This document shows, piece after piece, positions 1 to 10,862 of a stretch of DNA of 10,862 bases; the first letter of the stretch is position 1; each line of letters starts with the position of its first letter. The notes under the pieces are model-generated. The model was not told the origin of the DNA, did not search any database, and was given only the letters and a program-made list of their open reading frames with translations. Origin of the DNA: a virus; the UHGV virus genome UHGV-1695878, one strand, 5' to 3'. The translations under genes were made by a program, and so were the position numbers.

Positions 1-82
1 AATTATTGATTTCCAGCGCCACCTGATGTTTCGCGGCTGCTTCAGCAACGGCTTTCACATCTATTTCATATTTGGGATTGCC
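1..82 (-). CDS. ycdX: 3' portion of a core-type chromosomal gene, PHP-family phosphoesterase (YcdX-like), apparently cut off at the island junction; continues leftward out of the window
   Basis: Reverse complement of 1..91 translates [30 protein letters not shown] with the frame open to the window edge. The stretch [27 protein letters not shown] matches what I remember of the C-terminal half of E. coli YcdX (there preceded by ISHP rather than YMIL). Codons are GCG/CTG/GTG-rich, unlike the AT-rich DNA to the right. Recall-based and unverified. Confidence 0.35.
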
Positions 83-121
83 TAATATCATGTACCCATC
101 AACACACGAGAGGATACAACG

Positions 122-391
122 ATGAACATTACCAAAGCAATCCATAACTATGCTCGCCGCCGTGGAATCGAACTTCAACTCGAAGATGAGCAGGTTAGAT
201 TCTGGGAGATAGAACAAGATTGTGAATGGATGTTCAGCTATTCGATTGCTCAATGTGGTTGCTTGTTCTGGAAAGGTAATGTGTATCTTCCTCGCGATAT
301 TAAAGAAGAACTTCCGGCGATGATTGGCACCGATAAGAAGTTAAAGGAAGTCTTAGATTTTATCTACAAAGAGTTTATTAGCAAGAAGTAA
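122..391 (+). CDS. hypothetical protein, 89 aa
   Basis: ATG 122, TAA 389..391; SD GAGGA about 7 nt upstream (gagaggatacaacgATG); followed by a hairpin terminator. No recognisable domain. An open minus-strand frame overlaps it, so strand choice rests on SD plus terminator. Confidence 0.55.
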
Positions 392-2691: not shown

Positions 2692-2727
2692 GCGGCCTAA
2701 ATCGACGTATAACGAGCTAAAACAGTT

Positions 2728-2757
2728 AAGGGGTACAGATGTACCCCTTTTTAATTT
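2728..2757. terminator. bidirectional rho-independent terminator between convergent genes
   Basis: Perfect palindrome AAGGGGTAC-agat-GTACCCCTT followed by TTTAATTT; lies between the recombinase stop (2691) and the stop of the minus-strand gene (2765). Confidence 0.6.
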
Positions 2758-2764
2758 AATTGCG

Positions 2765-3940
2765 TTAGGCAGCATCTAAGAGAGTATTAAAGTATTCATC
2801 CATTAAATCAGGACTGTCGTCATCAATACAGAAAAATTCCGGTTTATTGATGCCGTAGAAGTGAGTATGTAGCTTGAATGTATCGTCATCAAATACATCT
2901 TTCGGGGATACCCACATATTAGCCTCGTCCGGTTGATTGGTTAGGTAGTCATAAACCAGTTGCTGTAAGTGTGGTAACTCATCAATAGTCAGAGTTTCCG
3001 ACCATCCATCCTTGAAATCTTTGTAGGGTGCTGCATGAGTCTTGAAGCGTTGTTTTACTTCATGCTCTAAATCAACGGCTTTCCAACCATCCTCAAACTC
3101 ATGAGTAAAGATTAAGCGGTGAGTGAAGTTGCTCTTTCTGGTTTGCTCTCTCATTCGTTCTTCTGGTTTTCGGGTAGTGATTCCAAATTTAATAAATTTG
3201 TCATCTAATAATTGAATGTAGAAACTAGCCTTACCCTGATAAGTCCGGTTAGACAGTTGCACCAGTTGGTCTTTAATGCAAAGCGGACAAGTGAAAGAAT
3301 CAGCACATCTTAAATGAGATTCCCATTCGTGGTTATGTGACTTGCAATAGGTTTTAAATTTAACATCCTTTAGGTGTGGGGTGTTTATGGTAAATCCTTT
3401 GAAGATGTAAGGTGTAGTCTCGCAACGTGCATTGATGATTGTCTCTTTGTCCTTAATAACTTCATCAAAAGTCTTGCCACTTCTTACCCGTTGGGATTTT
3501 TCAGCCATACAGATTTTGCAATCAAAATCGAAATCATCTTTGAGAGCATGTAATAGAGATGGCGTCATGATTTGATTGTGTTCAGGGCACAAAACACGGG
3601 CTTTCGTTCTATTTCGCCCTTTCCATTCTCCTTGCCATCCGAGGAATTTCTTTCCCTTCTCATTACAACGAGATTCCATTTTCAACCATACAGCCTTTTC
3701 AGTCTGGAGTAACTCACCCCCGTTAGTATCTTCCAGTTTGCGTAATTTGTAGTCCTTATATTCTTGTGTGTCTAAATTGTAGATTCGAAAGTAAGTGTGA
3801 TTACCCTTCCACGGTAGGATAAATCCACCAAATACGAAAGCAGGTTCCAGTTTAGCGATGATTCGTTGTTGGTACTCTTCCGGCGATAAACCGCGAGTTT
3901 TCTTAACAAAAGGAATTTCGGCAGCGTAAGCAAGTTTCAT
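2765..3940 (-). CDS. Cys-rich protein with T5orf172 (GIY-YIG-like) domain, 391 aa
   Basis: ORF track start at 4051 is TTG; the first ATG at 3940 has a strong SD (AGAGGAAActactATG), giving MKLAYAAEIPF... Cys clusters (CPEH...CKIC; CKSH...CADSFTCPLC) and a T5orf172-type core FYIQLLDDKFIKFGITTRKPEERMREQ. Family assignment from motif recognition only. Confidence 0.7.
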   Translation of the reverse strand: MKLAYAAEIPFVKKTRGLSPEEYQQRIIAKLEPAFVFGGFILPWKGNHTYFRIYNLDTQEYKDYKLRKLEDTNGGELLQTEKAVWLKMESRCNEKGKKFLGWQGEWKGRNRTKARVLCPEHNQIMTPSLLHALKDDFDFDCKICMAEKSQRVRSGKTFDEVIKDKETIINARCETTPYIFKGFTINTPHLKDVKFKTYCKSHNHEWESHLRCADSFTCPLCIKDQLVQLSNRTYQGKASFYIQLLDDKFIKFGITTRKPEERMREQTRKSNFTHRLIFTHEFEDGWKAVDLEHEVKQRFKTHAAPYKDFKDGWSETLTIDELPHLQQLVYDYLTNQPDEANMWVSPKDVFDDDTFKLHTHFYGINKPEFFCIDDDSPDLMDEYFNTLLDAA

Positions 3941-3999
3941 AGTAGTTTCCTCTAAAATAATAAGCTCACTACTATTTATTAGAGAAAATTGTCTTGCTA

Positions 4000-4027
4000 T
4001 TGCATTCTCTATCTGAATGTGTATAAT
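4000..4027 (+). promoter_or_regulatory. sigma70-type promoter for the 189-aa/uvsW operon
   Basis: TTGCAT (4000..4005), 16-nt spacer, TATAAT (4022..4027); oriented toward ATG 4095, leaving a leader of about 60 nt with SD AAGTGAGGT. Confidence 0.45.
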
Positions 4028-4094
4028 ATGCGACCCTAAATCCCAAACCAACCATATTGAGGTTATGCCTATAAGTTAAAAAAGTGAGGTCTAT

Positions 4095-4664
4095 ATGATT
4101 CCAGTAATGGCTAAAGATATTGTTTTTACTCCTAAATCCTCCCGTGCTGCAACTCCATCGGCATTAGAACAACGCATTCTGACTCACATCAAAGAGAAGG
4201 ACTTACCGTTAGTCTTTCATGGCTTTCTGGGTGAGTTTAAAGGGCTTCATTCAAGAATTGCTCTTACATGTACCCGATGCGGTAATAGAGCCGACAAATC
4301 AGCTACTAACCTGCTTAATGAAGGTAAACGATGTGTTTGCTTCAATAGTGACTACTTTCAATATAAAGCGGGTGTGCCTTATCTCTATGTAATGAAGTCT
4401 GGGGATATTGGTAAATTTGGTGTTACAAAGTCAATCATCAAGCGACGTGTTAATCTGGGTGTACGCAATCCCGGTCATAACTTTGATATTGTCTTTGCTC
4501 GTGAAATGCCATCAATGAAACATGCTTTAGCCACTGAAAGAGCAATAAAGAGATTACTGGATGTGGGTATAGGCGGGATTGAATACGGCAAAACTGAAAC
4601 ATTCCACTACTGCAATAAATCACTAAACAATATAAAGAATATTGCAAGTGTGGAGTGGAACTAA
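4095..4664 (+). CDS. small zinc-ribbon + T5orf172 (GIY-YIG-like) domain protein, 189 aa
   Basis: ATG 4095 with SD GTGAGGT; Cys cluster CTRCGN...CVCF; then YLYVMKSGDIGKFGVTKSIIKRRVNLG...ATERAIKRLL, a T5orf172/GIY-YIG-like motif. Stop TAA 4662..4664 overlaps the uvsW ATG (TAATG), implying translational coupling. Confidence 0.7.
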   Translation: MIPVMAKDIVFTPKSSRAATPSALEQRILTHIKEKDLPLVFHGFLGEFKGLHSRIALTCTRCGNRADKSATNLLNEGKRCVCFNSDYFQYKAGVPYLYVMKSGDIGKFGVTKSIIKRRVNLGVRNPGHNFDIVFAREMPSMKHALATERAIKRLLDVGIGGIEYGKTETFHYCNKSLNNIKNIASVEWN

Positions 4665-6154
4665 TGCAAGATATTAAAATTCATTTTCAAGATTACAGTT
4701 TCGTTAAGGTTGATTGCTCTCCTTCCATCGGAATGGAATTAAGAGATTATTTCTCGTTTGAGGTTGAAGGGGCTAAGTTTAGCCCCCGTTACAAGTATTC
4801 CGGCTGGGATGGACGAATAAGACTGTTTACGCATGAAAATACCCTACCAATTGGACTATTAAAAACATTGGGTGTCTTCGTTAAAAATATGGGCTATTCA
4901 GTCTGGATTGACCCGCGATTGCTTGAGAAGGAAGATGTAACCAAAGACGCGATTAATGAATGGATTGATTCCTTAGAAGTGTATTCCGGTTCCAATAAAA
5001 TCAATCCTTACTGGTATCAGCGTGAAGCAGTCTTTCAGGGTATCCATAATCGCCGGAGAATGTTAGTTCTTCCTACCAGTGCGGGTAAGTCATTGATTGC
5101 TTGTATGCTGTCTCGTTGGTACTTAGAGCATTACACCGGAAAGGTGTTAATCATTGTCCCGACTACATCGCTAGTGGTTCAAATGAGGGATGATTTTATC
5201 GATTATCGGTTATTCCCTTATGAAGCAATTCATACAATGATGAGTGGTAGCGGGAAACATCCGGGAGAAAGGCTAATCACTGTTTCAACATGGCAATCAG
5301 CTTGCAAGATGCCCCCTGAATGGTTCAAACAATATGGAATGTTGATAGTTGATGAATCGCATAAGGCTAGTGCCAAAAATATTACCAATATCATTAACGG
5401 AATGAATCATTGCCAATTTAAGATCGGCATGACTGGTTCCCCGAAAGAATCAAAGTGCCATTTAATGCAGTATGTCGGGCTTTTCGGTGATATTTCTAAG
5501 ATCGTGAGTATTGACCGCCTGATGGAAGAAGGGCAGGTGACAAAACTGAAAATTAACTGTCTTTTCCTTCGTTATACCGATGAGGAATGTAGCGCGGTTA
5601 AGGGGAGAGAATATGCGGAAGAGATCAAGTATATTACATCTAACCCACGACGTAATAAGTTTGCTTGCAATTTGGCGCTAAAACTCGCTAAGAAGGGCGA
5701 AAACGTATTCCTGATGTTCCGCAATACTAAGCACGGAAAACTTATGTATGACGCGTTACAGAAGGTACACGACAAGGTTTATTATATTGACGGTGGAGTT
5801 AAGACAGAAGAACGTGATGAATTTAAGAAAATGGCGGAGGGTGACACCGGGATCATTTGTGTTGCGTCTTATGGTGTGTTCTCTACTGGTGTTTCAATTA
5901 AGAATTTGCACCATGTTATTTTCGGTCATCCAGTGAAGGAATCAACTATCGTTCGTCAGAGTATCGGTCGTGCATTGCGTAAACATGGTTCTAAGGATAT
6001 TGCAACGGTCTGGGATCTTATAGATAGCCTATGCATAATCGGTCGTAACGGAAAAGTCAAGCGCAAAAATTACGCGGTAAAACATGCACTTGATAGAATC
6101 CGCTATTATGTGACCGACAAATTCGACTATACAACTAAAACAATTGCTATATAA
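4664..6154 (+). CDS. uvsW: UvsW-type SF2 DNA helicase (T-even phage-like), 496 aa
   Basis: Start taken as ATG 4664 (ORF track begins at GTG 4655); GGAG 8 nt upstream. N-terminus MQDIKIHFQDYSFVKVDC plus SF2 motifs LPTSAGKS (Walker A), IIVPTT, DESH, MTGSP and QSIGRALRK. Colinear over its whole length with phage T4 UvsW as I recall it (MDIKVHF..., about 500 aa). Confidence 0.9.
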   Translation: MQDIKIHFQDYSFVKVDCSPSIGMELRDYFSFEVEGAKFSPRYKYSGWDGRIRLFTHENTLPIGLLKTLGVFVKNMGYSVWIDPRLLEKEDVTKDAINEWIDSLEVYSGSNKINPYWYQREAVFQGIHNRRRMLVLPTSAGKSLIACMLSRWYLEHYTGKVLIIVPTTSLVVQMRDDFIDYRLFPYEAIHTMMSGSGKHPGERLITVSTWQSACKMPPEWFKQYGMLIVDESHKASAKNITNIINGMNHCQFKIGMTGSPKESKCHLMQYVGLFGDISKIVSIDRLMEEGQVTKLKINCLFLRYTDEECSAVKGREYAEEIKYITSNPRRNKFACNLALKLAKKGENVFLMFRNTKHGKLMYDALQKVHDKVYYIDGGVKTEERDEFKKMAEGDTGIICVASYGVFSTGVSIKNLHHVIFGHPVKESTIVRQSIGRALRKHGSKDIATVWDLIDSLCIIGRNGKVKRKNYAVKHALDRIRYYVTDKFDYTTKTIAI

Positions 6155-6188
6155 CAAAAAAAGCGCCTCTAGTGGGCGCTTTAATTTT
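6155..6188. terminator. bidirectional rho-independent terminator between convergent genes
   Basis: AAAAAA-AGCGCC-tctagtg-GGCGCT-TTAATTTT between the uvsW stop (6154) and the stop of the minus-strand peptidase gene (6187). Confidence 0.6.
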
Positions 6189-6549: not shown

Positions 6550-6897
6550 TTAAAGGTATTGGAAGATATACCCAATAAAGCGCATACCCTTGATGTAATA
6601 AGGTGTAGTGCCTAGACATACCGCTCGTGTATCGCCAATACAATTGAAGTTGTAAGGATTAACTACATCAATCTCCTGCCCTACACGAAAGCGATACTTA
6701 GGACGTTTAGCGAGTGTCGCAACACAAAACACTAGCCCGTTACCATCATCGCGGATCATTTGCTTGAATTGTTTATGCTGGACTCTCTTCGCCTCAAAAT
6801 CATGTGTCATTGATTCAGGGCTAATGCCATTAATAAAAATACCGGAAAGCTGATCGACCGGATAAGTAGGAAATTCAGTGAAAATATTTTTAGCCAT
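6550..6897 (-). CDS. hypothetical protein, 115 aa
   Basis: ATG with SD TGGGGGTATAAC; tightly packed in a same-strand gene series; no recognisable motif. Confidence 0.6.
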   Translation of the reverse strand: MAKNIFTEFPTYPVDQLSGIFINGISPESMTHDFEAKRVQHKQFKQMIRDDGNGLVFCVATLAKRPKYRFRVGQEIDVVNPYNFNCIGDTRAVCLGTTPYYIKGMRFIGYIFQYL

Positions 6898-6935: not shown

Positions 6936-7619
6936 TTAAACGTATTTCATGCGTGATTTAATGTGCTTGTTGATATGTTCAAGCATCATTACTTCGTTGC
7001 TTTCCCACGATCCTAGCGTCGAATAACGAGTAGAAATTTTATCCGACTTAACGGCAACAATTCGCTTACTCTGTTTCTGTATGCGTTTCTCTAAGCGACG
7101 TTTTGCCACCGCCGATCCATTCTTAGCGCGTTTGGTTCGGGATTTCTTAGGCTTGTACTTCTTCATGATAAAAGTCCCTTCCTTGTTCTCTACCTTGATG
7201 AAGTTGCCGTTTTCGATGTTACGCATCATCTTACCGCCTTTGATGGCCTTAATGTTCCCGTGGGAGTCTAAGACCTTGCCGTTAGCGATTGGAACTAGCT
7301 TATTGATTTTGCCACCATCGAAATAGTGTTTCAGATAGTCATCCTGACTGCCGATCTTCTTGTCCTTATCCCGTGCGCCCTTGATGAAGATTTGGTGTCT
7401 CGTCCCTGATCGGTTCTTGTAGTTGGTGTTACCTACAGCTTGCTGAGTCCATCGAGTAGGTCTATCAACATTCTTGTTAATCTTCTTCTGGAGTGCTCTG
7501 GAAGCAAAGATCGCCCCTTCCCCTATCGCCTTTTCGAATGTATCGGTTGCCTTTTCAGACCATTGCCGTAACGCTTTCTTAGTCCTTAGAGCGTTTCGTT
7601 TATTGGTACTGGTTGCCAT
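6936..7619 (-). CDS. hypothetical Lys/Arg-rich basic protein, 227 aa
   Basis: SD AGGGGGCTAAC directly upstream; strongly basic tracts (KKYKPKKSRTKRAKNG); no predicted TM segment; function unknown. Confidence 0.65.
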   Translation of the reverse strand: MATSTNKRNALRTKKALRQWSEKATDTFEKAIGEGAIFASRALQKKINKNVDRPTRWTQQAVGNTNYKNRSGTRHQIFIKGARDKDKKIGSQDDYLKHYFDGGKINKLVPIANGKVLDSHGNIKAIKGGKMMRNIENGNFIKVENKEGTFIMKKYKPKKSRTKRAKNGSAVAKRRLEKRIQKQSKRIVAVKSDKISTRYSTLGSWESNEVMMLEHINKHIKSRMKYV

Positions 7620-10719: not shown

Positions 10720-10862
10720 GGTGATGCTGCCAACTTACTGATTTAGTGTATGATGGTGTTTTTGAGGTGCTCCAGTGGCTTCTGTTTCTATCAGCTGTCC
10801 CTCCTGTTCAGCTACTGAAGGCGTGGTGCGTAACGGTAAAAGTACTGCCGGACATCAGCGCT
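10720..10862 (+). mobile_element. IS1-family insertion sequence, left end (partial; continues beyond the window)
   Basis: GGTGATGCTGCCAACTTACTGATTTAGTGTATGATGGTG from 10720 is the IS1 left inverted repeat; the following sequence matches IS1 with a handful of substitutions. The 9 bp immediately outside (gattcgccc, 10711..10719) would be the target duplication if this is a simple insertion. Confidence 0.85.
10775..10862 (+). CDS. insA: IS1 InsA, 5' part (3' end outside window)
   Basis: GTG 10775; translates [29 protein letters not shown], the InsA N-terminus with its CPSC zinc-finger, a D-to-E variant of the K-12 form as I recall it. Confidence 0.8.

What the first reader, a model, noticed from the sequence alone, without database searches (positions are those of the whole stretch)
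2765..6154. Terminator-insulated divergent module (Cys-rich T5orf172 protein, zinc-ribbon T5orf172 protein, UvsW-type helicase): candidate undescribed phage-competition or defence system
Seen in sequence: three genes diverge from a 154-bp AT-rich control region (3941..4094) that carries TTGCAT-16-TATAAT for the rightward pair. The 189-aa gene stop overlaps the helicase start (TAATG, 4662..4666), so the two are translationally coupled. Palindromic terminators on both outer flanks (2728..2757 and 6155..6188) isolate the unit from the integrase and from the leftward operon. Both smaller proteins combine Cys clusters with a T5orf172/GIY-YIG-like core; the helicase has intact Walker A (LPTSAGKS) and DESH motifs. 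The position between integrase and tail fibre is the classic accessory slot of temperate phages, where defence and moron cargo accumulates. I do not know this gene combination as a described system.
Basis: partly seen in the sequence, partly recalled or inferred. Interest (0 to 1): 0.8.

Follow-up and report, generated by a model that had tools for sequence, protein, structure and literature searches.

The report
T4-type helicase with homing endonucleases in prophage
The three genes are a recombination helicase gene (uvsW) captured from a T4-like virus plus two selfish homing-endonuclease-type nuclease genes, sitting in the spare-cargo slot of an E. coli prophage and still swapping DNA with lytic T4-like phages; they are probably not a new three-gene defence system.

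Summary
The sequence observation holds. Genes, TAATG overlap, both terminators, the TTGCAT-16-TATAAT site and the domain calls are all at the stated coordinates.

- The window is the integrase end of an E. coli/Shigella prophage inserted in ycdX.
- The helicase is a true UvsW, about 80% identical in protein to Krischvirus (RB49/Phi1-like) UvsW. A 561-bp tract (5465-6025) is 98-99% identical in DNA to those lytic phages.
- Both small proteins are CapR-zinc-finger + T5orf172 nucleases, the family of free-standing homing endonucleases of T5, ICP1 and Krischvirus.
- The 189-aa gene occupies the inh/uvsW site where T4 carries segE, whose target is uvsW.
- Related prophages carry other pieces of the T4-like inh-uvsW-uvsW.1-uvsY.-2-uvsY segment in this slot. 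Nuclease genes are swapped, deleted or inserted into uvsW, and four genomes keep the helicase alone.
- No PADLOC model matches the nucleases.

Best reading: a homing-endonuclease ("HEG") island of T4-like origin lodged in a temperate phage.

All three genes are under purifying selection. The nuclease subfamilies appear prophage-specific. An anti-T4-like competition role therefore remains possible (about 0.2).

The parts
2728..2749 (.). Bidirectional hairpin terminator between the serine recombinase gene and the 3' end of the 391-aa gene. It marks the left edge of the variable slot.
   Evidence: Called on both strands (9 pairs, 5 GC). Homology among slot alleles runs through about 2779 and then breaks.
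2765..3940 (-). 'Long' T5orf172-type nuclease (391 aa): CapR-type zinc-finger DNA-binding repeats, a GIY-YIG-like T5orf172/MUG113 core, and an acidic C-terminal extension.
   Evidence: Pfam CapR 1e-9 and MUG113 8.5e-6; phrog_681 1e-42. Best phage relatives (30% identity, 1e-35) are the Krischvirus Whisky/JK32 genes inserted between uvsW and uvsW.1; T5 gene T5.141 (annotated 'endonuclease') also hits at 1e-10. Invariant core Y241, K251, G253, R262, E292, E315, T316. dN/dS 0.08-0.25.
3941..4094 (.). Divergent AT-rich control region (31.8% GC).
4000..4027 (+). Sigma-70-like promoter candidate TTGCAT-16-TATAAT for the 189-aa gene and the helicase.
   Evidence: Read directly from the sequence. Not called by the consensus scan because the -35 matches at only 3 of 6 positions. 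Function is inferred.
4095..4664 (+). 'Short' T5orf172-type nuclease (189 aa): one CapR-type CxxC...CxC finger plus the nuclease core. It sits directly upstream of uvsW, at the segE position.
   Evidence: CapR 2.2e-5, phrog_681 2.9e-19. Hits T5-like 'putative homing endonuclease' genes. Invariant Y98, K107, G109, R117, E148, E168, T169 in A3. dN/dS 0.09-0.25.
4664..6154 (+). UvsW-type SF2 helicase (496 aa), start overlapping the upstream stop (TAATG).
   Evidence: UvsW_N 1.7e-34, ResIII, Helicase_C. 80-82% amino-acid identity to Krischvirus UvsW. The closest database relatives are prophage alleles, followed by T4-like (Straboviridae) phage helicases. dN/dS 0.03-0.2.
5465..6025 (+). Recombination tract inside the helicase gene that is nearly identical to lytic Krischvirus uvsW.
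   Evidence: 9 mismatches to Phi1 and 7 to Whisky in 561 bp, with sharp edges. Flanks are 52-80% identical. Other prophage alleles carry different sequence in the same tract: L017 81-92%, L006 60-81%.
6160..6182 (.). Bidirectional hairpin terminator between the helicase and the convergent M15 endolysin gene. It marks the right edge of the slot.
   Evidence: Called on both strands. Homology to slot-empty alleles resumes at about 6152.
2768..2773 (.). GGCAGC microhomology, repeated at 3920-3925, used for the in-frame 1152-bp deletion of the 391-aa gene in helicase-only alleles.
   Evidence: Junction read in L007, which keeps only a mini-ORF MKLAYAA*.
4013..4021 (.). CTGAATGTG microhomology, paired with CTGGATGTG at 4557-4565, used for the 544-bp deletion of the 189-aa gene in helicase-only alleles.
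   Evidence: The same 108-nt remnant (4557-4664) is present in 4 complete genomes.

Best explanation
The module is a homing-endonuclease (HEG) island of T4-like origin, resident in the accessory slot of a ycdX-integrating temperate phage.

Inferred history:
- An ancestral prophage captured a piece of a T4-like genome spanning inh-uvsW-uvsW.1-uvsY.-2-uvsY.
- The window's allele keeps only uvsW.
- Two free-standing T5orf172 nuclease genes sit at the positions where T4-like phages carry HEGs: directly upstream of uvsW, and on the inh side.

Inferred mechanism:
- Each nuclease uses CapR-type zinc fingers to recognise a specific site in a nuclease-free allele of this locus. That allele could be in a related temperate phage or in an infecting Krischvirus.
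- The nuclease makes a double-strand break.
- The break is repaired by homologous recombination off the nuclease-bearing copy. This copies the nuclease gene and neighbouring uvsW sequence (co-conversion).

Shown directly:
- Repeated exchange with lytic Krischvirus, from the 561-bp tract at 98-99% identity and from other alleles with different patches.
- Turnover of the nuclease genes.

Not shown: cleavage, and the direction of homing.

The three genes are not an obligate unit.
For: 1. Family. Both small proteins are CapR + T5orf172-type nucleases with an intact catalytic core. This is the architecture described for T5orf172 HEGs (PMC10448857).

2. Position. T4 segE lies between inh and uvsW and targets uvsW (PMC2988022). 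Krischvirus G5211 has a SegE-type gene at that site. Whisky and JK32 have a T5orf172 homologue of the 391-aa protein between uvsW and uvsW.1.

3. T4-like synteny in sister alleles of the slot:
- Salmonella L012 has uvsW, uvsW.1 (90% amino-acid identity to Phi1) and a uvsY.-2 fragment.
- L019 has uvsW and a full UvsY.
- L006 has uvsW and the UvsY C-terminus (100% amino-acid identity to Phi1).
- L015, L005 and L004 have inh fragments (80%, 96% and 91%).

4. Mosaicism. Tract 5465-6025 is 98.4-98.8% identical to Krischvirus uvsW with sharp edges, and other alleles differ there.

5. HEG-like turnover:
- The left nuclease is only 24-64% identical between prophages whose recombinases are 73-98% identical.
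- Helicase-only alleles arose by two microhomology deletions.
- In L013 uvsW is cut off after Walker A, with a short nuclease gene directly behind it.
- A third T5orf172 gene sits elsewhere in L006.

6. UvsW also hosts LAGLIDADG inteins (P0025).

7. The picture matches 'HEG-islands': unstable HEG content and >90% nucleotide identity between unrelated phages (PMC10448857).

8. T4-type infections efficiently recombine with homologous DNA resident in the cell after a break. Homology on only one side is enough (PMC3016281).
Against: - No cleavage or homing was tested.
- In the window both nucleases lie on the 5' side of uvsW, so the cargo is not bracketed on both sides.
- The window allele has no inh homology left of the nucleases. 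Two-sided homing into a Krischvirus genome is therefore not obviously possible from this allele.
- The two nuclease subfamilies were found only in this prophage family, not in T4-like contigs. The long type carries a prophage-specific acidic C-terminal extension. These features fit resident, possibly domesticated, genes.
- The arrangement long nuclease | short nuclease-uvsW persists across E. coli and Salmonella alleles as diverged as 65-71% in the helicase.
- The prophage-specific 5' two-thirds of the helicase has dN/dS of 0.035-0.13. A purely selfish or hitch-hiking model does not by itself explain this.
Confidence: 0.58

Rival explanations
1. Phage-competition or defence module. The prophage expresses the nucleases, the UvsW copy, or both, from its own sigma-70 promoter in order to damage infecting T4-like (Krischvirus) phages. 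The nucleases would cut the phage at the inh-uvsW region, a form of marker exclusion or interference. The helicase, present from time zero, would unwind origin R-loops prematurely.
For: - Moron-like architecture: its own promoter candidate and terminators on both sides, in a variable slot.
- Purifying selection on all three genes.
- Prophage-specific nuclease subfamilies with an added acidic tail.
- The arrangement is conserved across diverged E. coli and Salmonella alleles.
- Precedents: the T5orf172 nuclease Odn is domesticated for phage-satellite conflict (PMC10448857). An intron endonuclease mediates interference between co-infecting phages (PMC11620839, listed).
- T4 UvsW is a late protein that shuts off origin R-loop replication (PMC3016281).
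Against: - No PADLOC hit for the nucleases, and only generic SF2 hits for the helicase.
- The parts occur separately. The locus shows decay: gene fragments, a truncated uvsW, and an IS1 in the helicase of ETEC1738.
- It is rare: 17 of 5426 complete E. coli genomes.
- It is found only in one prophage family, not in unrelated defence islands.
- No T4 late-promoter motif lies in the module.
- No experiment supports it.
Confidence: 0.22
2. The helicase is an ordinary accessory replication or repair function of the temperate phage or its host (RecG-like fork regression and branch migration). The nucleases are incidental parasites of that gene.
For: - Strong purifying selection on the helicase, including its prophage-specific 5' part.
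- The helicase is retained alone in 4 genomes after loss of both nucleases.
- UvsW has broad branched-DNA helicase activity (PMC3016281).
Against: - It lies in the cargo slot, not in a replication module.
- It is absent from many sister prophages.
- Some alleles carry UvsY, UvsW.1 or Inh pieces. These make sense only with T4-like partner proteins that the prophage lacks.
Confidence: 0.12
3. Inert debris: a decaying remnant of an accidental recombination with a T4-like phage, with no activity of any of the three proteins.
For: - Fragments of inh, uvsY and uvsW in sister alleles.
- IS1 in the tail-tip gene of this prophage copy.
Against: - All three ORFs are intact, with conserved catalytic motifs and dN/dS well below 1 over dS of 0.1-0.4.
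Confidence: 0.05

Closest known systems
T4 segE / uvsW (free-standing GIY-YIG homing endonuclease between inh and uvsW; target uvsW; Kadyrov 1997, as tabulated in PMC2988022)
   Same: A free-standing nuclease gene sits immediately upstream of uvsW, in the same orientation. Presence is variable among related genomes, and co-conversion-like mosaic tracts lie in uvsW.
   Different: The 189-aa protein is a T5orf172/CapR-finger nuclease and has no Seg-type GIY-YIG match; the SegE_GIY-YIG model hits the G5211 gene but is not among the Pfam hits of the window protein. The locus is in a temperate prophage, not a T-even genome. Cleavage was not shown.
T5orf172-family homing endonucleases of T5-like, ICP1-like and Krischvirus phages (Barth, Dunham & Seed 2023, PMC10448857)
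   Same: CapR-type zinc-finger repeat(s) plus a T5orf172 core. Location is next to core genes. Alleles turn over rapidly and domains shuffle.
   Different: Only 25-33% identical to any phage member. The long type has a 40-70 aa acidic C-terminal extension not seen in the phage paralogues. The subfamilies were found only in one prophage family.
HEG-islands (core genes flanked by HEGs and shared at >90% nucleotide identity between unrelated phages; PMC10448857)
   Same: A core T4-like gene with adjacent HEGs, a 98-99% nucleotide tract shared between a siphovirus-type prophage and a myovirus, and unstable HEG content.
   Different: The island sits in a temperate prophage and is partly decayed. 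In this allele both HEGs are on one side of the cargo. The shared tract is 0.56 kb, not >10 kb.
Odn and CapR (T5orf172-derived proteins domesticated in the ICP1-PLE conflict)
   Same: The same domain families are used by one mobile element against, or on, another.
   Different: CapR has lost the nuclease, whereas both window proteins keep it. [quoted passage not shown] No target is known here.
T4/Krischvirus UvsW helicase
   Same: UvsW_N + SF2 core, about 80% amino-acid identity to Krischvirus UvsW, all motifs intact.
   Different: It is encoded by a prophage without UvsX or gp32. The window allele has no uvsW.1. It lies behind a sigma-70-like promoter rather than a T4 late promoter.

Membership tests
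T5orf172-family free-standing homing endonuclease | T5orf172/MUG113 (GIY-YIG-like) nuclease core with conserved catalytic residues | tested here: met
   391 aa: PF13455 at 26.7 bits, above the 22.3 cut-off. 189 aa: no Pfam nuclease hit, but phrog_681 at 3e-19 and the invariant Y/KxG/R/E/ET columns shared with T5.141 and the Krischvirus paralogues.
T5orf172-family free-standing homing endonuclease | N-terminal zinc-finger DNA-binding domain(s) of CapR/DUF723/DUF4379 type | tested here: met
   PF21817 CapR at 38.9 and 25.0 bits (cut-off 24.2). CxxC...CxC cysteines are conserved. The feature is as defined in PMC10448857.
T5orf172-family free-standing homing endonuclease | Free-standing gene between or beside conserved genes, with presence/absence and allele turnover among close relatives | tested here: met
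   Slot alleles. Deletions. Counts.
T5orf172-family free-standing homing endonuclease | Site-specific cleavage of the nuclease-free allele and unidirectional gene conversion (homing) | not testable with these tools
   Only indirect footprints are available: sharp-edged tracts that are 98-99% identical.
UvsW helicase (T4-like core gene) | UvsW_N domain plus SF2 helicase core with Walker A and DExH | tested here: met
   PF21241 at 118.5 bits, PF04851 and PF00271. LPTSAGKS and DESH in the translation. 80-82% amino-acid identity to Krischvirus UvsW.
UvsW helicase (T4-like core gene) | Genomic synteny inh | uvsW-uvsW.1 | uvsY.-2-uvsY | tested here: inconclusive
   Absent from the window allele itself. 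Present piecewise in sister alleles of the same slot.
HEG-island (Barth et al. 2023) | [quoted passage not shown] | tested here: not met
   In the window both nuclease genes lie 5' of uvsW, and a terminator and the endolysin gene follow it. In Krischvirus relatives HEGs occur on either side.
HEG-island (Barth et al. 2023) | High nucleotide identity of the island between otherwise unrelated phages, with unstable HEG content | tested here: met
   561 bp at 98.4-98.8% identity to Krischvirus, and no other DNA similarity of the nuclease region to any phage record. HEG replacement is shown.
Known anti-phage defence systems (PADLOC-DB v2) | Match of the component proteins to a defence-system model | tested here: not met
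   No hit for either nuclease. The helicase has only weak generic SF2 hits (PbeA, HamB, type IV REase; best 8.5e-12 over part of the protein).
T4 Seg-type GIY-YIG endonuclease (SegE) | Homology to the SegE GIY-YIG domain | tested here: not met
   PF19835 and PF01541 hit the G5211 gene upstream of uvsW. They do not hit the window's 189-aa protein.
CapR-type repressor (PLE) | CapR DNA-binding domain without a nuclease domain | tested here: not met
   Both window proteins keep the nuclease core.

The most novel reading that the evidence does not exclude
A temperate prophage keeps a private, diverged copy of T4-like recombination and regulation genes: UvsW here, and UvsY or Inh in sister alleles. 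It also keeps prophage-specific T5orf172 nucleases. Together these would be a weapon against superinfecting T4-like phages. The nucleases would cut the invader at the inh-uvsW locus. The constitutively made UvsW, present before the phage's own late UvsW, would collapse origin R-loops or divert recombination-dependent replication onto the chromosomal homologue. This would be a defence built from the enemy's own timing switch.
Probability: 0.18. Interest if true: 0.75.

Novelty: new variant of a known kind. Interest (0 to 1): 0.45.

Why it matters
It documents recent and repeated DNA exchange between a strictly lytic T4-like lineage (Krischvirus) and a temperate siphovirus-type prophage of E. 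coli and Salmonella. The exchange is centred on a locus known to be a homing-endonuclease target. Prophages may therefore act as reservoirs and exchange partners for homing endonucleases and for core genes of lytic phages. It also offers a tractable system to test whether T5orf172 nucleases really home, and whether a chromosomal copy of a phage gene plus a nuclease affects infecting phages. For genome annotation, it warns that a nuclease plus helicase in a prophage hotspot need not be a defence system.

Tried and rejected
- PADLOC and NCBIfam scans gave no defence-system or equivalog match for the nucleases.
- A sensitive blastn of 2700-4700 against 50,697 phage records found no match. The nuclease genes were therefore not recently copied from any sequenced phage.
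- T4 late-promoter motif TATAAATA: one match in the window, at 659 and outside the module, which is at chance level. Infection-triggered late transcription is not indicated.
- The MotA-box reading of TTGCTAT at 3995-4001 was rejected by eye. It lies 20 nt from the -10, too far.
- A search of IMG/VR with a profile of the short nucleases looked for T4-like genomes carrying them next to uvsW. Only 8 loci were found, all on 23-45 kb prophage-type contigs.
- Insertion versus deletion origin of the helicase-only allele: insertion was rejected. The allele retains the ribosome-binding site, start, first 7 codons and stop of the 391-aa gene, and the last 108 nt of the 189-aa gene.
- Assembly chimera was rejected. 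The same arrangement is in 12 complete genomes.
- No structure prediction was run. The sequence-level family assignments were already clear.

Full report
**1. The observation**

- 2765-3940 on the minus strand, 391 aa from the ATG at 3940.
- 4095-4664, 189 aa.
- 4664-6154, 496 aa.

Other sequence features:
- The 189-aa stop and the helicase start overlap as TAATG at 4662-4666.
- The 154-bp intergenic region is 31.8% GC.
- It contains TTGCAT (4000-4005), 16 nt, then TATAAT (4022-4027).
- The consensus scan did not call this site, because the -35 matches at only 3 of 6 positions. It found fewer promoter-like sites in the region than in shuffles. The promoter is plausible but unproven.
- Hairpin terminators are called on both strands at 2728-2749 and 6160-6182.

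- 391-aa protein: CapR zinc-finger domain plus a MUG113/T5orf172-type core.
- 189-aa protein: CapR finger plus phrog_681 'endonuclease'.
- Helicase: UvsW_N, ResIII and Helicase_C.

**2. Where the window lies**

The window is the integrase end of a siphovirus-type prophage inserted in ycdX, next to the csg operon.
- A complete E. coli chromosome matches 99% of the window at 92% identity. There the region continues into tail, capsid and other phage genes.
- The region between the large serine recombinase and the M15 endolysin is a variable slot.
- The last 143 bases of the window are the left end of IS1, inserted in the J-like tail-tip gene. This copy of the prophage is probably defective.

**3. 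The helicase is a T4-like uvsW that still recombines with lytic phages**

- At the DNA level the helicase gene matches only uvsW of Krischvirus (RB49/Phi1-like T4-related coliphages) among 50,697 phage records.
- Protein identity to those UvsW proteins is 80-82%.
- The gene is mosaic. Window 5465-6025 (561 bp) differs from Phi1 at 9 positions and from phage Whisky at 7. The edges are sharp, and the flanks are 52-80% identical.
- Other prophage alleles carry different sequence in that same tract. L017 is 81-92% identical to Phi1 there and L006 is 60-81%. All share the prophage-type 5' part.
- This points to several independent exchange events.
- In the large protein database the closest relatives are prophage alleles from E. 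coli and Salmonella. T4-like phage helicases of many genera follow at 61% identity or less.

**4. The two small proteins are T5orf172-type homing-endonuclease-like nucleases**

- The best phage relatives of the 391-aa protein (30% identity, 1e-35) are genes of Krischvirus Whisky and JK32 inserted between uvsW and uvsW.1.
- Paralogues sit at other intergenic sites of Krischvirus genomes. T5 gene T5.141, annotated 'endonuclease', also matches.
- The 189-aa protein matches 'putative homing endonuclease' genes of T5-like phages.
- Alignments show an invariant Y...KxG...R...E...ET core and conserved zinc-finger cysteines in both window proteins.
- This is the architecture described for T5orf172 homing endonucleases (PMC10448857).
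- The position is telling. T4 segE is a free-standing endonuclease inserted between inh and uvsW, with uvsW as its target (PMC2988022). Krischvirus G5211 carries a SegE-type gene at exactly that site. The 189-aa gene occupies the same site in the window.

**5. Sister alleles show a captured T4-like segment with unstable nuclease content**

Comparing the slot across related prophages:

| Allele | Content of the slot |
|---|---|
| Window type | long nuclease, short nuclease, uvsW |
| Salmonella L012 | long nuclease, short nuclease, uvsW, uvsW.1 (90% aa identity to Phi1), uvsY.-2 fragment |
| Salmonella L019 | long nuclease, short nuclease, uvsW, full-length UvsY |
| E. coli L006 | a different long nuclease, short nuclease, uvsW, uvsY.-2 fragment, C-terminal half of UvsY (100% aa identity to Phi1) |
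| Salmonella L013 | long nuclease, uvsW cut off after Walker A, with a short nuclease gene directly behind it |
| E. coli L015 and L005 | long nuclease plus inh fragments (80% and 96% aa identity to Phi1), no helicase |
| E. coli L004 | only a 23-residue inh remnant |

- In T4-like genomes the order is inh | uvsW-uvsW.1 | uvsY.-2-uvsY. Every allele therefore holds some piece of that segment.
- The long nuclease is only 24-64% identical between prophages whose recombinases are 73-98% identical.
- Four complete E. coli genomes keep the helicase alone. Their junctions show two microhomology deletions:
  - GGCAGC, 1152 bp, in frame, leaving the mini-ORF MKLAYAA*.
  - CTGRATGTG, 544 bp.
- Among 5426 complete E. 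coli genomes, 17 have the helicase and 12 have all three genes.

**6. Interpretation**

The simplest account is a homing-endonuclease island of T4-like origin lodged in a temperate phage. It matches the published concept (PMC10448857):
- Homing-endonuclease genes cluster at core genes.
- Their content turns over.
- Nucleotide identity is unusually high between otherwise unrelated phages.

T4-type infections are known to recombine efficiently with homologous DNA resident in the cell once a break is made. One-sided homology is enough (PMC3016281). This makes the observed tracts mechanistically reasonable.

The cleavage step and its direction are inferred, not shown.

**7. What does not fit neatly**

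- All three genes are under purifying selection, with dN/dS of 0.03-0.25. This includes the prophage-specific 5' two-thirds of the helicase.
- The two nuclease subfamilies were found only in this prophage family.
- The long type has an acidic C-terminal extension that the Krischvirus paralogues lack.
- The three-gene order persists across alleles whose helicases are as diverged as 65-71% in protein.

These points keep a competition or defence role alive.
- One concrete version concerns timing. T4 UvsW is a late protein that shuts off origin R-loop replication (PMC3016281). A copy made by the lysogen before infection could sabotage early replication of a T4-like invader.
- Against a dedicated defence system:
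  - There are no PADLOC matches for the nucleases.
  - The parts are separable.
  - Fragments and truncations are frequent.
  - The module is restricted to one prophage family.

**8. Verdict**

- The interpretation as an undescribed three-gene defence system is only partly supported.
- The locus is best described as a new variant of a known kind: a T4-like uvsW cargo with T5orf172 homing-endonuclease-type genes, resident in a prophage and exchanging DNA with lytic Krischvirus phages.
- Interest is moderate. The interest lies in gene flow between temperate and virulent phages, and in a possible competition role that can be tested.

Noticed in passing
window 10720-10862: The left end of IS1 (GGTGATGCTGCCAACTTACTGATTTAGTG...) interrupts the J-like tail-tip gene, so this prophage copy is probably defective. 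It also explains the 77,404 matching places in E. coli genomes. The IS1 end was recognised from memory of its sequence and from the IS1 annotations under hits H46 and H56.
   Followed up: partly
window 1-136, and L001 11741-12136: The window starts inside a 5'-truncated ycdX pseudogene. The prophage is integrated in ycdX, beside csgG/ycdZ/ycdY, presumably by the large serine recombinase encoded at 997-2691.
   Followed up: partly
window 2765-2920 (C-terminus of the 391-aa protein); alignment A2: All prophage 'long' T5orf172 proteins carry a 40-70 aa acidic C-terminal extension. Four end in ELDLSPLExL and the window's ends in LLDAA. The Krischvirus paralogues lack it. It may be a regulatory or protein-interaction tail; its function is unknown.
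   Followed up: no
L006 1600-2646; L013 13515-15141: A second variable slot lies between the prophage end and the recombinase. In L006 it holds a third nuclease gene (348 aa, three CapR repeats + T5orf172). In a Salmonella allele it holds OmpW/Ail-like outer-membrane protein genes.
   Followed up: no
L013 6772-7875: In one Salmonella allele uvsW is truncated right after the Walker A motif (143 aa, ending ...PTSSGKD). A short T5orf172 gene follows directly, as if the nuclease gene had replaced the rest of the helicase.
   Followed up: partly
P0025 (ENA metagenome protein, 844 aa): A UvsW homologue carrying LAGLIDADG homing-endonuclease/intein domains, and a Serratia phage 4S 'split helicase'. 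uvsW seems to be a general hotspot for selfish elements.
   Followed up: no
L019 8530-8940: A common Salmonella allele (346 member sequences for its helicase) keeps an intact, diverged UvsY (136 aa, 74% identical to Phi1) beside uvsW. The prophage has no UvsX or gp32 partner in the regions read.
   Followed up: partly
window 6550-6897 and 6936-7619 (minus strand): Two conserved genes between the endolysin and the holin-like small ORFs have no Pfam or PHROG match (115 aa and 227 aa, the latter very basic). The 227-aa gene is only 36% identical in the Salmonella prophage, while its neighbours are 70-88%.
   Followed up: no
NZ_CP122768.1 (ETEC1738), hit H137: In this strain the helicase gene of the same slot is itself split by an IS1 insertion.
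   Followed up: no
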